DNA of 64,000 nt from Escherichia coli. Lineage in GTDB: Bacteria; Pseudomonadota; Gammaproteobacteria; Enterobacterales; Enterobacteriaceae. Position 1 is the stretch's first letter. The number at the start of each line of letters is the position of its first letter. A program made the position numbers. Below, in pieces: positions 40,901 through 43,900 of this stretch. The DNA lies in NCBI RefSeq assembly GCF_030384885.1, contig NZ_CP128613.1; one strand, 5' to 3'.

Positions 40901-43900
40901 AAACGCAATGGCTTAAAGATTCGCCCTCACAGCCATTGCAACAGTCACTGAAAGACCTTGAGCGGGCTTACAAAAACTTCTTCCAGAAGCGGGCTGCTTT
41001 TCCCCGATTCAAAAAGCGGGGACAGAATGATGCATTCCACTACCCGCAGGGCGTTAAGCTCGATCAGGAAAACAGCCGTATTTTTCTGCCGAAACTTGGC
41101 TGGATGCGCTACCGGAATAGCCGTCAGGTCACGGGTGTTGTGAAAAATGTCACTGTCAGCCAGTCCTGCGGTAAGTGGTACATCAGTATTCAGACAGAAA
41201 GTGAAGTATCAACTCCGGTTCATCCTTCAGCATCAATGGTCGGGCTGGATGCTGGCGTGGCTAAACTCGCCACGCTGTCAGATGGCACAGTCTTTAAGCC
41301 TGTAAACAGTTTTCAGAAAAACCAGAAGACGCTGGCGAGACTTCAGCGACAGTTAAGCCGCAAGGTCGAATTCAGCAATAACTGGCAGAAGCAGAAACGC
41401 AAAATACAGCGACTGCATTCCCGTATCGCAAATATCCACAGGGACTACCTTCACAAAGTCACAACGACCGTCAGCAAAAACCACGCAATGATAGTCATTG
41501 AGGATTTGAAGGTCAGCAACATGTCAAAGTCAGCAGCGGGTACGGTCAGCCAGCCGGGGCGCAATGTCCGGGCAAAATCAGGTTTAAACCGTTCGATACT
41601 GGATCAGGGCTGGTATGAAATGCGCCGCCAGCTTGAGTACAAGCAGCTCTGGCGTGGCGGTCAGGTGCTTGCTGTTCCGCCAGCGTACACAAGCCAGCGT
41701 TGCGCGTGCTGTGGTCATACAGCGAAAGAAAATCGCCTGTCACAAAGTAAATTCAGATGCCAGGTATGTGGATATACAGCGAACGCCGATGTAAACGGCG
41801 CTCGTAACATTTTAGCGGCGGGGCACGCCGTTCTTGCCTGTGGAGAGATGGTGCAGTCAGGCCGCCCGTTGAAGCAGGAACCCACCGAAATGATTCAGGC
41901 GACAGCCTGAACGTAGCAGGGATCCACGTCCTTCAGGGCGTGGAGGATGTCAACAAACAGGTTGAATTAACTCCGCGCCCTGGTTTTTGACATTACCCAC
42001 CGCGCGCGACACAGGGTGCCAGGTGAACTGGTTTGCTGGAACACAGCCACTGGCAGCAATTTCAGAGGCTTCTTTACCGCTAATCTCTTGCCGCATCCAT
42101 TCCCGCGCAGCTTCTGGCGACAGTACCAGCGGGCGGCGGTCATGAATATCTACCAGACCCTGGTCTGCTGCTGCAGTGACAATTAAAAATCCTTCGGCTT
42201 CGTCACCACGCTCAAACGGTGTGCTACCTATCGCGGCTATAAAAACAGGTTGTCCATCAGCGCGATAGATAAAATAAGGCTGTTTTTTGTCGCCTTCTTT
42301 TTTCCACTCAAACCAGCCATCGGCAAAACAGATTGCCCGACCATGTTGCCAGAGCGGTTTAAACATACGACTGGTTGCCGCAGTTTCTACGCGGGCGTTA
42401 ATCAGCGGCGGTTTATCCCACCATCCGGGAGCATATCCCCAGAAAACCGGATCCAGATGAAGGTGTTCATCACGTTCACTGAGCAGAAGAACTTTGGTTC
42501 CCGGCGCGACGTTGTATCTGCCAATAGGTTCGGGATCGTAGGGAATATCGCGTTCAATATCTTCCGCGAGAAGCGCAAGGTAATCTTCACGCGTTTGGGA
42601 TTGGGTAAAGCGTCCACACATAGCAACCTCCTGAGATCATACTGAAAAGAATAGGAGAGGGGGCGGGTAAAATCTATGTGATACAGAGGTAACGATGTTC
42701 CCGCTGTTGGCCACAGCGGGAATGAGGGATTACTTCTGAATTAAATAACGAATGGTCGGCCCGTCTTGCTGAATATCCAGCACCGTATAGCCGTGATTAC
42801 GCGCATCCAGTGGAATATTATTGATCGACTGCGGACAGTCGCTCACCACTTCCAGGATCTCACCTTTTTTTAACTGCGGCATCGCCTCAAGGGTTGCAAC
42901 TGCCGGATAAGGGCAGGGTTCACCCACCATATCAAGGCGGTAATCAGGAACGATATTTTTCATGCGATCTCCTTGGCTGTCTGCGGTGCCGCACGGCGGA
43001 AGAAGCGTTTTTCCCAGCCGATAATCAACATCAGCGCAGCAAACAGCAGCAAATATGTCACCAGCAGGCCACCCATCGGACCAAAGGTTTTCAGTAGGTT
43101 GATTTTGTCCCAGTCGGTGGCCAGCGCCGGAGCGAAATCATCCCAGTAATACGCCAGAATCGTTGAGCCGATCACATTGCCCAGACCGACCCACCAGTAG
43201 TGCACCTGGCCTTCTACCGCGCGGTACATCCAGCCGGTTTCGCAGCCGCCTGCCAGCACGATGCCAAATCCAAACAGCAAACCACCAATTACCGCGTTTG
43301 GACCTGCCCACATGATTTTGGGTTCAACGCCTAACTGTACGTAACTGAAGATCCCGATGGCACTTACCGCCATACCGATAATAATTGCTTTCGCCATGTG
43401 GGTACGTCCGGTGATCCACATATCGCGGAACGCCGAAGTAAAGCAGATTTGCGCACGTTCAATCAGTAAACCAAAGCCGACGCCAAACAGCATTGCCAGC
43501 CCCAGTTTTGGTTGGTTCATCGCCGTCAGTAGCGCCCAGCCCAGCATGCCGAAAAAGACCAGCATCCCGAGACGAAAACGACGCCGCGCCTGATCCGGTT
43601 TTTGCGTCAGCGGTGAGGCGGCAGAAACTTTCTGCATTTTCACGGGAATACGGAAGATGGGCAGCAGGGTAAAGCGCGCGCCAAACCATGAACCAATGGC
43701 AGTGGCGATGGCAAAGAACCAGGCATGCAGCGAGAACTGAGGAATGCCGGTAAAGAACGCCGCCAGGTTACAGCCCATTGCCAGACGCGCGCCAAAACCG
43801 GCGATAATGCCGCCAATGATGGCCTGCATAATGCGGATACGGCTGCGCGGCATGCGTAGTTTGACATTGTTGGCCCACAGCGCTGCAGCAAAGCAGCCGC

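What the first reader, a model, noticed from the sequence alone, without database searches (positions are those of the whole stretch)
41905..41960. The IS right end lies within a few bp of the yedK stop codon, so any TnpB guide would derive from the yedK 3' end
tnpB ends at 41910, the right-end hairpin spans 41924-41943, and the yedK stop is at 41950-41952 on the opposite strand. The insertion may have altered the last codons or the terminator of yedK. If an omega RNA is made, its guide portion would be transcribed from the yedK 3' terminus, antisense to yedK.
Basis: inference. Interest (0 to 1): 0.35.

Follow-up and report, generated by a model that had tools for sequence, protein, structure and literature searches.

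The report
IS609 inserted in yedK stop codon
A common, already known E. coli insertion sequence (IS609 type, carrying the RNA-guided nuclease TnpB) sits exactly inside the stop codon of the DNA-repair gene yedK, adding one cysteine to YedK and placing the nuclease's predicted guide over the last yedK codons; this is ordinary biology for this transposon family.

Summary
Three IS-free alleles, eight E. coli insertion sites and 36 right ends from other Enterobacterales place the element at 40206-41953 (1748 bp). It is an IS609-type IS200/IS605 element, inserted 3' of TTAT (40202-40205) and ending in TCAA (41950-41953).

IS-free alleles read CCT GTT TGA TAA (YedK 222 aa, ...QPV). The window reads CCT GTT TG|T TGA (223 aa, ...QPVC). 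The insertion therefore split the native stop codon.

TnpB is full length and keeps its catalytic and zinc-binding residues. The 147 nt before the right end (41807-41953) form a structure conserved in 28 relatives: 97% of cells paired, 10 pairs with compensatory changes. This fits an omega RNA scaffold.

The predicted guide is 41954-41969 (CAAACAGGTTGAATTA), antisense to yedK. A perfect TTAT+target exists in IS-free alleles (K-12, Nissle, E7-1N7). The likely role is the known TnpB cleavage of the vacant site.

Expression and activity were not testable. The insertion adjoins yedK in 1093 of 5426 complete E. coli genomes. Interest is low and the kind is already known.

The parts
40202..40205 (+). 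Target site and transposon-adjacent motif (TAM), TTAT. It is flank, not IS.
   Evidence: TTAT directly precedes the IS at all 8 E. coli sites and is kept in the IS-free alleles. Relatives use TTAT or TTAC. An IS609 TnpB was programmed with TAM TTAT in PMC12781874 Table S2.
40206..41953 (+). IS609-type IS200/IS605 element, 1748 bp, with no terminal inverted repeats and no target duplication.
   Evidence: Boundaries come from IS-free alleles, 8 E. coli sites and 36 right ends in other species. PGAP names copies 'IS200/IS605-like element IS609 family'.
40218..40221 (+). Left-end DNA guide AAAA, just 5' of the left hairpin. It is inferred to pair with the TTAT target, as in IS608.
   Evidence: It covaries with the target in relatives: AAAA goes with TTAT and AAAG with TTAC, with one exception, L016. 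The role is inferred from the IS608/ISGst model.
40222..40241 (+). Left-end subterminal hairpin CCCCGTCC-TTCA-GGGCGGGG.
   Evidence: Read from the sequence. It is 90% identical to the right-end hairpin as a direct repeat (D2).
40020..40694 (-). tnpA (Y1/HUH transposase) ORF of 224 codons. The domain is intact but the stop codon is lost, so the ORF runs 61 codons into the flank. PGAP marks it as a pseudogene.
   Evidence: Pfam Y1_Tnp matches 1-121/121 and NCBIfam transpos_IS200 matches 2-126/126. HVH and the Tyr of QYIEQQ align with IS608 TnpA H64/H66/Y127. The window has CAG at 40263-40265 where relatives have TAG. PGAP note.
40702..41910 (+). tnpB/insQ, 402 aa, GTG start, apparently intact RNA-guided nuclease.
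   Evidence: Pfam HTH_OrfB_IS605, OrfB_IS605 and Cas12f1-like_TNB match, and NCBIfam guided_TnpB gives 2e-114. It matches ISDra2 TnpB structures 8BF8/8EXA/8H1J at 1e-53. D183, E267, D363 and C334/C337/C353/C356 are present, and it is 84.7% identical to the IS609 TnpB of PMC12781874.
41807..41953 (+). Predicted omega RNA scaffold. It overlaps the last 104 nt of tnpB and the right end.
   Evidence: The RNAalifold consensus on 28 relatives has 49 pairs. 97.4% of cells pair, against 39-49% when partners are slid. Ten pairs carry compensatory changes, and 0/500 shuffles reach the observed values. The MFE is -60.6 kcal/mol with z -2.69 on the + strand, against z -1.41 on the - strand. Sub-threshold Rfam hits are HgcC, sot0042 and RAGATH-18.
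41924..41943 (+). Right-end subterminal hairpin CCACGTCC-TTCA-GGGCGTGG.
   Evidence: Read from the sequence. Compensatory changes occur in relatives at columns 152-157 paired with 176-181.
41950..41953 (+). Right-end cleavage motif TCAA (transposon-encoded motif). Its first three bases are the present yedK stop codon (TGA on the minus strand, 41950-41952).
   Evidence: It is invariant in all right ends. The annotated yedK CDS starts at 41950.
41953..41955 (-). Extra Cys223 codon of YedK (TGT): TG comes from the old stop codon TGA and T comes from the last base of the IS.
   Evidence: Occupied and IS-free alleles were compared directly.
41954..41969 (+). Predicted 16-nt guide of the omega RNA, CAAACAGGTTGAATTA, antisense to yedK codons 218-223.
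   Evidence: The position follows from the right-end boundary. TTAT plus this sequence is present without mismatch in the K-12, Nissle and E7-1N7 alleles. In the window its only match is the native site, preceded by TCAA rather than TTAT. The 16-nt guide length is taken from ISDra2 (own knowledge).
41950..42621 (-). yedK (SRAP/HMCES-family peptidase), 223 aa.
   Evidence: Pfam SRAP matches residues 1-211 at 9e-52. It is 98% identical to K-12 YedK over 222 aa.
41971..41988 (+). yedK-coded stretch CTCCGCGCCCTG (41971-41982), 11/12 complementary to the hairpin 3' arm at 41934-41945, followed by T5 (41984-41988). It is a site-specific alternative stem that may be chance.
   Evidence: the repeat finder pair I12. 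It is the best of 42 sites, is reached by 7/2000 flank shuffles, and replaces the right-end hairpin in the MFE fold of 41807-41995.

Best explanation
Shown: an IS609-type IS200/IS605 element (40206-41953) was inserted by single-strand 'peel and paste' transposition 3' of a TTAT. On the other strand that TTAT is part of the tandem stop codons TGA-TAA of yedK. The cut fell between G and A of the TGA. The last IS base turns TG into a Cys codon, and the conserved terminal TCAA of the IS supplies a new in-frame TGA. YedK is therefore intact but one residue longer.

Inferred from the family's known mechanism: the 3' end of tnpB plus the right end is transcribed with tnpB as a structured omega RNA of about 147 nt. 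Its 3' extension (41954-41969) is the guide. TnpB loaded with it recognises TTAT followed by CAAACAGGTTGAATTA. That is the IS-free yedK allele, or the donor joint left after excision, and not the occupied locus, where TCAA precedes the target. Cutting the vacant site, followed by recombinational repair from an occupied copy, keeps the element in place.

The guide and any read-through are by necessity antisense to the yedK 3' end. This is a by-product of the position, not a designed regulator.
For: - Boundaries and stop-codon split.
- TTAT target: 8/8 E. coli sites, TTAT/TTAC in relatives covarying with the left-end guide AAAA/AAAG, and TAM TTAT used for IS609 TnpB in PMC12781874.
- TnpB intact. 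Seven of the eight E. coli copies at other sites that were fetched have a tnpB annotated as intact (L006 has an internal stop). Five of their tnpA genes carry internal stops or frameshifts.
- Scaffold structure with covariation, strand-specific G-U pairs and a sharp end at the IS boundary. Sub-threshold Rfam hits fall in families known to overlap tnpB 3' ends (sotRNA link).
- Perfect TAM+target in IS-free alleles and absence elsewhere in the window.
- Published mechanism of donor-joint cleavage and retention: 10.1101/2023.03.14.532601.
Against: - There is no expression or activity data for this element.
- No sigma-70-like promoter was found on the + strand near the scaffold or upstream of tnpB.
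- Codon differences between copies are 5-13 synonymous against 10-14 non-synonymous, which suggests relaxed constraint on TnpB.
- tnpA has lost its stop codon and is flagged as a pseudogene. IS609 never transposed in K-12 mutation-accumulation lines (PMC5009759). Excision, the event TnpB is meant to counter, may therefore no longer occur.
- Copies are about equally distant from each other whatever their site, 24-41 differences. This points to old, static insertions.
- The flank can pair with the hairpin 3' arm, which might disturb the scaffold in unprocessed transcripts.
Confidence: 0.8

Rival explanations
1. Inert relic. The element is an old, immobile insertion. TnpB and the omega RNA are not made or not active, and the only consequence is the harmless extra C-terminal cysteine on YedK.
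For: - tnpA has lost its stop codon and is flagged as a pseudogene.
- No promoter-like sites were found.
- Codon differences in tnpB suggest relaxed constraint.
- Distances among copies are star-like.
- IS609 was inactive in K-12 mutation-accumulation lines.
- The extra residue lies outside the SRAP domain, which covers residues 1-211.
Against: - The tnpB ORF is full length with all catalytic and zinc-binding residues here and in most copies, while tnpA decays.
- Few differences fall in the 104 nt where the scaffold overlaps tnpB: 0-2, against 17-26 in the other 1105 nt.
- The scaffold structure is conserved with covariation across genera. That argues for function in the family, though not necessarily in this copy.
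Confidence: 0.3
2. Antisense regulator. The omega RNA, or tnpB read-through, pairs with the 3' end of yedK mRNA. Together with convergent transcription, it lowers or truncates yedK expression in strains that carry the IS.
For: - The geometry is right. tnpB and yedK converge, and the guide plus the last scaffold bases are complementary to yedK codons 218-223 and the stop.
- No terminator-like site separates the two genes on either strand.
- A stem between 41934-41945 and 41971-41982 followed by T5 would place + strand 3' ends inside yedK.
Against: - There is no evidence of any effect on yedK.
- The same geometry arises wherever this family lands, so it needs no selected function.
- Guide RNA bound in TnpB is not known to act on mRNA (own knowledge).
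- yedK stays an intact ORF in the occupied alleles of the window and E. coli W.
Confidence: 0.1
3. Domesticated TnpB. The protein is a nuclease-dead, RNA-guided repressor of the TldR type that targets yedK.
For: Only the fixed position next to a host gene, and the decay of tnpA.
Against: - The RuvC residues D183, E267 and D363 and both CxxC pairs are present, and the protein is full length against the TnpB models.
- The element keeps both transposon ends.
- The guide-matching site in cis is preceded by TCAA, not the TAM.
- The same element sits at seven or more unrelated sites.
Confidence: 0.02

Closest known systems
IS609 (E. coli, IS200/IS605 family; K-12 copy = insQ/ydcM next to ydcO)
   Same: - Same organisation: divergent tnpA and tnpB, 1747-1749 bp.
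- Same ends and the same TTAT target.
- The full-length copies compared are about 98% identical in DNA to the window copy.
- PGAP uses the IS609 name for some copies.
   Different: - The TnpB here is only 84.7% identical to the protein labelled IS609 in PMC12781874. This E. coli chromosomal lineage is therefore a variant of that reference.
- All E. coli copies examined share loss of the tnpA stop codon.
- This copy sits in the yedK stop codon rather than at ydcO.
IS608 of Helicobacter pylori (the mechanistic model for the family)
   Same: - A Y1/HUH TnpA that aligns with the solved structures 2A6M/2VJV at 5e-20, with HUH and Tyr conserved.
- Subterminal hairpins at both ends.
- Insertion 3' of a tetranucleotide without duplication.
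- A right end finishing in TCAA.
- A 4-nt left-end guide that covaries with the target.
   Different: - The target is TTAT rather than TTAC.
- tnpA and tnpB are divergent rather than co-directional (own knowledge for IS608).
- No biochemistry exists for this element.
ISDra2 TnpB-omega RNA and the G. stearothermophilus ISGst elements (donor-joint cleavage, 10.1101/2023.03.14.532601)
   Same: - The TnpB is homologous to ISDra2 TnpB (1e-53 over residues 3-376).
- The scaffold overlaps the tnpB 3' end and stops at the right-end boundary.
- The guide comes from the flank.
- The TAM equals the transposase target, so the IS-free allele is the natural target.
   Different: - Everything functional here is predicted, not measured.
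- The TAM is TTAT rather than TTGAT (own knowledge for ISDra2).
- The partner transposase gene may be defective.
TldR (TnpB-derived RNA-guided repressors, PMC10705468)
   Same: A TnpB-family protein fixed next to a host gene, with a guide complementary to host sequence.
   Different: The catalytic residues and both transposon ends are intact here. There is no sign of domestication.

Membership tests
IS200/IS605 family (IS608/IS609-like) | Y1 HUH transposase TnpA | tested here: met
   Pfam Y1_Tnp at 8e-40 and full length; NCBIfam transpos_IS200 at 7e-42. HUH and the catalytic Tyr align with IS608 TnpA. Caveat: the stop codon is lost and PGAP marks the gene as a pseudogene.
IS200/IS605 family (IS608/IS609-like) | Subterminal imperfect hairpins at both ends in the same orientation, with no terminal inverted repeats | tested here: met
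   The hairpins at 40222-40241 and 41924-41943 form a 90% identical direct repeat.
IS200/IS605 family (IS608/IS609-like) | Insertion 3' of a specific tetranucleotide, with no target-site duplication and precise IS-free alleles | tested here: met
   TTAT is present at 8/8 E. coli sites. The IS-free alleles of yedK, yfeD and yajI join TTAT directly to the right flank.
IS200/IS605 family (IS608/IS609-like) | The target is recognised by a left-end DNA guide, seen as covariation of guide and target | tested here: met
   AAAA goes with TTAT and AAAG with TTAC across relatives, with one exception, L016.
IS200/IS605 family (IS608/IS609-like) | Transposition activity (excision and integration through single-stranded DNA) | not testable with these tools
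   The only indirect evidence is the spread to 7 or more E. coli sites in the past and the absence of events in K-12 mutation-accumulation lines.
TnpB RNA-guided nuclease | HTH/WED-REC region, RuvC with the D-E-D triad, and a zinc-finger (TNB) domain | tested here: met
   Three Pfam domains match, and NCBIfam guided_TnpB scores 382.8 bits against a cut-off of 100. D183, E267, D363 and two CxxC pairs are present. Homologous to ISDra2 TnpB structures.
TnpB RNA-guided nuclease | TAM- and guide-dependent DNA cleavage | not testable with these tools
   An IS609 TnpB was purified and given a TTAT target in PMC12781874. I did not find its result, and that protein is only 84.7% identical to this one.
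Omega RNA (reRNA) of TnpB | A structured RNA that overlaps the tnpB 3' end and stops at the right-end boundary, on the tnpB strand | tested here: met
   A consensus structure of 49 pairs with covariation and controls. The fold is strand-asymmetric. Conservation stops at 41953.
Omega RNA (reRNA) of TnpB | Membership of a curated RNA family | tested here: not met
   The Rfam hits fall below the gathering scores: HgcC 21.9/50, sot0042 18.9/88, RAGATH-18 25.4/44.9. These are resemblances only.
Omega RNA (reRNA) of TnpB | The RNA is expressed and bound by TnpB, with a guide of about 16 nt from the flank | not testable with these tools
   This needs RNA sequencing or pull-down. The guide coordinates are a prediction.
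TldR-type domesticated TnpB | Loss of RuvC catalytic residues and of the transposon ends | tested here: not met
   The catalytic triad and both ends are intact.
SRAP/YedK (HMCES family) | SRAP domain with an N-terminal Cys2 | tested here: met
   Pfam SRAP at 9e-52 over residues 1-211. The protein starts MCGRF and is 98% identical to K-12 YedK.

The most novel reading that the evidence does not exclude
In this transposon lineage the target (TTAT/TTAC, whose complement contains TAA) and the invariant terminal TCAA (complement TGA) together make insertion into the TAA stop codon of a convergent gene ORF-preserving: nnA-TAA becomes nnT-TGA. Gene ends would then be a favoured, tolerated niche. The omega RNA guide would be forced to be antisense to a host gene's last codons. 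At yedK, the host coding sequence additionally supplies a stem plus U-run that could define the 3' end of the guide RNA precursor or couple yedK and TnpB expression.
Probability: 0.12. Interest if true: 0.45.

Novelty: already known. Interest (0 to 1): 0.2.

Why it matters
This result mainly gives a clean annotation:
- the exact IS609 boundaries, the TAM and the predicted guide;
- an explanation of why many E. coli YedK proteins are 223 rather than 222 residues;
- the point that the annotated stop codons of yedK, yfeD and K-12 ydcO belong to the transposon.

It also identifies a ready-made natural comparison for testing TnpB retention or homing in E. coli itself. 1093 genomes carry the IS next to yedK, and 456 carry an IS-free allele that matches the window's flanks on both sides. 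The IS-free alleles read (K-12, Nissle, E7-1N7) keep a perfect TAM+target. No new principle is involved.

Tried and rejected
- My first boundary estimate from the K-12 comparison alone was 40207-41954. I corrected it by one base to 40206-41953 once eight sites showed a variable base after GTCAA and the yfeD and yajI IS-free alleles fitted only TTAT|flank.
- I suspected that the window's TnpA had lost its catalytic tyrosine (SPGNF against SPGYF in other copies). Alignment to IS608 TnpA shows that position corresponds to Cys111. The catalytic Tyr127 is the Y of QYIEQQ, which is present. Rejected.
- I wondered whether tnpA naturally lacks a stop codon. Relatives in Serratia, Yersinia and Morganella stop at TAG after ...TPG/TPS, so the E. 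coli lineage has a stop-loss mutation.
- Rfam gave only sub-threshold hits.
- Promoter and terminator scans found nothing informative around the scaffold, the tnpA/tnpB divergent region or downstream of yedK.
- Distances between copies do not group the yedK-site copies together. I could not use them to date the insertion or to argue for repeated homing.
- Frame test for 'stop-codon swapping': ORFs of 100 codons or more end at the right-end TGA in 6 of 42 sites, against 2 of 84 in the other two frames. My binomial estimate is p of about 0.02. I did not test this against the expected share of tolerated TTAT sites that overlap stop codons, so I treat it as a side note.
- Literature searches for IS609 or insQ with TnpB found no functional study of this element's RNA.
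Full report
**What is in the window.** The window is 100% identical to E. coli 2013C-4282, NZ_CP027579.1. PGAP annotates three genes here:
- a partial tnpA;
- insQ, described as 'RNA-guided endonuclease InsQ/TnpB family protein', at window 40702-41910;
- yedK on the opposite strand at 41950-42621.

**Exact boundaries.** K-12 has no IS at yedK. In window orientation it reads ...ataatctccaggcttat|caaacaggttgaattaactcc. A synthetic 'empty site' query built from the window's own flanks matched 456 genomes in one piece. Two of them, E7-1N7 and Nissle 1917, read ...gataatctccaggcttat|caaacaggttgaatta.

Seven other insertion sites of the same element in E. coli were fetched: gltX/yfeD, a TetR gene, yoaG, a sulfatase pseudogene, ydcL/ydcO in K-12, and yajI twice. 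All have TTAT followed by CCGGTGCGCCGTAAAA at the left. At the right all have ...GGAGGATGTCAA followed by a different base: C, G, C, G, C, T, T. The K-12 IS-free alleles of yfeD and yajI fit only if the IS is C...TCAA and the flank resumes immediately after it.

A scan of one genome per species returned 57 loci. In 36 distinct right ends from Serratia, Yersinia, Morganella, Xenorhabdus, Photorhabdus, Klebsiella, Pantoea and others, similarity ends abruptly after GGAGGATGTCAA. The element is therefore 40206-41953 (1748 bp). The target is TTAT (40202-40205) and there is no duplication.

**Effect on yedK.**
- IS-free alleles end CCT GTT TGA TAA, giving YedK of 222 aa ending ...QPV.
- The window ends CCT GTT TG|T TGA CAT..., giving 223 aa ending ...QPVC.
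- The insertion split the native TGA after its second base. The last base of the IS completes a Cys codon (41953-41955). The invariant terminal TCAA of the IS provides the new stop (41950-41952).
- E. coli W and RMDEC465 have the identical junctions and the same ...QPVC end.
- The added residue lies outside the SRAP domain, which covers residues 1-211. YedK is otherwise 98% identical to K-12.
- The 3-kb stretch 39700-42700 is covered by 80% or more in 1093 of 5426 complete E. coli genomes. This is a common, shared allele.

**Identity of the element.**
- It has an IS200/IS605 architecture of the IS608 kind.
- TnpA matches Y1_Tnp and NCBIfam transpos_IS200 over their full lengths. It aligns with IS608 TnpA structures, with HUH and the catalytic tyrosine (the Y of QYIEQQ) conserved.
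- The two subterminal hairpins form a 90% identical direct repeat.
- In relatives the target is TTAT or TTAC. It covaries with the four bases 5' of the left hairpin, AAAA or AAAG, with one exception. This is the IS608 rule of target recognition by a DNA guide (summarised in 10.1101/2023.03.14.532601).
- PGAP labels some copies 'IS609 family'.
- TnpB is 84.7% identical to the IS609 TnpB listed in the supplement of PMC12781874. That paper gave the protein a target beginning TTAT.
- Elements of this type match 5015 of 5426 E. coli genomes. This strain's chromosome has a single copy.

**State of the two genes.** TnpB is 402 aa and matches the guided_TnpB model at 382.8 bits and ISDra2 TnpB structures at 1e-53. 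It keeps D183, E267, D363 and both CxxC pairs.

tnpA is uninterrupted here but has no stop codon inside the element. Relatives in other genera end at TAG after ...QQQTPG. All E. coli copies read CAG there (window 40263-40265) and continue through the left end into whatever flank follows, here to 40020. Because every E. coli site shares this change, it predates the spread of the element in E. coli. Several copies also carry frameshifts or stops in tnpA, whereas tnpB is interrupted in only one of those examined.

IS609 produced no new insertions in K-12 mutation-accumulation lines (PMC5009759). Copies differ by 24-41 positions whether or not they share a site. This fits old, static insertions.

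**The omega RNA.** An alignment of 28 distinct sequences covering the 174 nt before the right-end boundary gives a consensus fold of 49 pairs in 8 helices.
- 97.4% of cells form standard pairs, against 39-49% when the 3' partners are slid by 1-3 columns.
- Ten pairs show compensatory double changes, against 2-6 in the slid controls.
- No shuffle out of 500 reaches the observed pairing or covariation.
- Some covarying positions are synonymous third-codon positions inside tnpB, for example columns 44/50 with GC in 14 sequences and AU in 13.
- Many pairs are G-U. These would be A-C mismatches on the other strand, so the constraint is on the tnpB-sense strand.
- A closing helix joins 41807-41812 to 41945-50, which gives a scaffold of about 147 nt.
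- The window sequence alone folds to the same shape: -60.6 kcal/mol with z -2.69 and 0/200 shuffles, against z -1.41 for the complement.
- Rfam gives only sub-threshold hits to HgcC, sot0042 and RAGATH-18. The sotRNAs are known to lie downstream of tnpB genes.
- No sigma-70-like promoter was found near the scaffold, so processing from the tnpB transcript is the likelier source (own knowledge). This was not tested.

**Guide and target.** By the family rule, the guide is the flank immediately 3' of the right end: 41954-41969, CAAACAGGTTGAATTA. The 16-nt length is taken from ISDra2 (own knowledge).

TTAT followed by this sequence is present without mismatch in the K-12, Nissle and E7-1N7 alleles. 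In the window the only match is the native site, where TCAA rather than TTAT precedes it. The expected activity is cleavage of the vacant allele or donor joint, followed by recombinational restoration of the element, as shown for ISGst elements. Whether this copy still does so is unknown. The relaxed codon pattern and the doubtful transposase make an inert relic a serious alternative.

**Antisense or terminator effects on yedK.** These are possible by geometry but unsupported. No terminator-like site was found downstream of the yedK stop in the occupied locus.

There is one site-specific oddity. The hairpin 3' arm (41934-41945) is 11/12 complementary to yedK codons at 41971-41982, and these are followed by T5. 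This is the strongest such pairing among 42 sites and is reached by 7/2000 flank shuffles. The sequence exists in IS-free alleles too. It is either chance or a fortuitous 3'-end signal.

**Why the IS end coincides with a stop codon.** The complement of the target is ATAA. When its TAA is an in-frame stop of a convergent gene, insertion converts nnA-TAA into nnT-TGA.
- This is what happened at yfeD (GCA TAA to GCT TGA, protein unchanged).
- The annotated stop of K-12 ydcO is likewise the TGA of the IS right end.
- At yedK the codon before TAA was itself a stop.
- ORFs of 100 codons or more end at the right-end TGA in 6 of 42 sites, against 2 of 84 in the other frames.
- This is probably a matter of which insertions are tolerated rather than a targeting mechanism. 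I did not test it against a proper background.

**Verdict.** The observation and the interpretation are correct and now precise to the base. What is there is a known element behaving as the family is known to behave. Interest is low.

Noticed in passing
window 40263-40265, and 40020-40694 (- strand): The tnpA stop codon is lost. Relatives in other genera end TnpA at TAG after ...QQQTPG. All E. coli copies read CAG there and run through the left end into the flank, which adds 61 flank-coded codons here. The change is shared by all 8 E. coli sites, so it predates the element's spread in E. coli.
   Followed up: yes
L003 2043-2046 (yfeD), L007 2044-2047 (K-12 ydcO), window 41950-41953: The invariant right-end TCAA supplies the annotated TGA stop codon of three different convergent host genes. 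At yfeD the protein is unchanged (GCA TAA becomes GCT TGA). ORFs of 100 codons or more end at this TGA in 6 of 42 sites, against 2 of 84 in the other frames.
   Followed up: partly
window 41934-41945 paired with 41971-41982, then T5 at 41984-41988: The 3' arm of the right-end hairpin is 11/12 complementary to yedK coding sequence 25 nt downstream, and a T-run follows. In the MFE fold of 41807-41995 this stem replaces the right-end hairpin. It is the strongest such pairing among 42 sites and is reached by 7/2000 flank shuffles. The sequence is also present in IS-free alleles.
   Followed up: partly
L016-L054, left ends: The four bases 5' of the left hairpin covary with the flanking target: AAAA goes with TTAT and AAAG with TTAC. 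L016 is an exception (AAAA with TTAC).
   Followed up: partly
window about 39331-40205, compared with L002 (K-12) and L014/L015: Similarity to K-12 ends 17 nt to the left of the TTAT. The yedK 3' end is the edge of a variable island. K-12 has yedL, yedN and the intG remnant. The window has emrE, ybcL, ybcM and an AT-rich stretch of about 870 bp without genes. Nissle and E7-1N7 have an ompC paralogue upstream.
   Followed up: no
L036-L041, L050, L053 (Photorhabdus, Klebsiella, Pantoea): A subgroup of relatives has a longer right-end hairpin (an extra 14 nt or so) and a different left end, but the same terminal GGAGGATGTCAA.
   Followed up: no
L074 2353-3025 (strain RMDEC465): In this strain the yedK gene next to the same insertion is annotated as frameshifted.
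   Followed up: no
window 40695-40701: Only 7 bp separate the divergent start codons of tnpA (ATG at 40694) and tnpB (GTG at 40702), so each promoter must lie inside the other gene. The consensus scan found none.
   Followed up: partly
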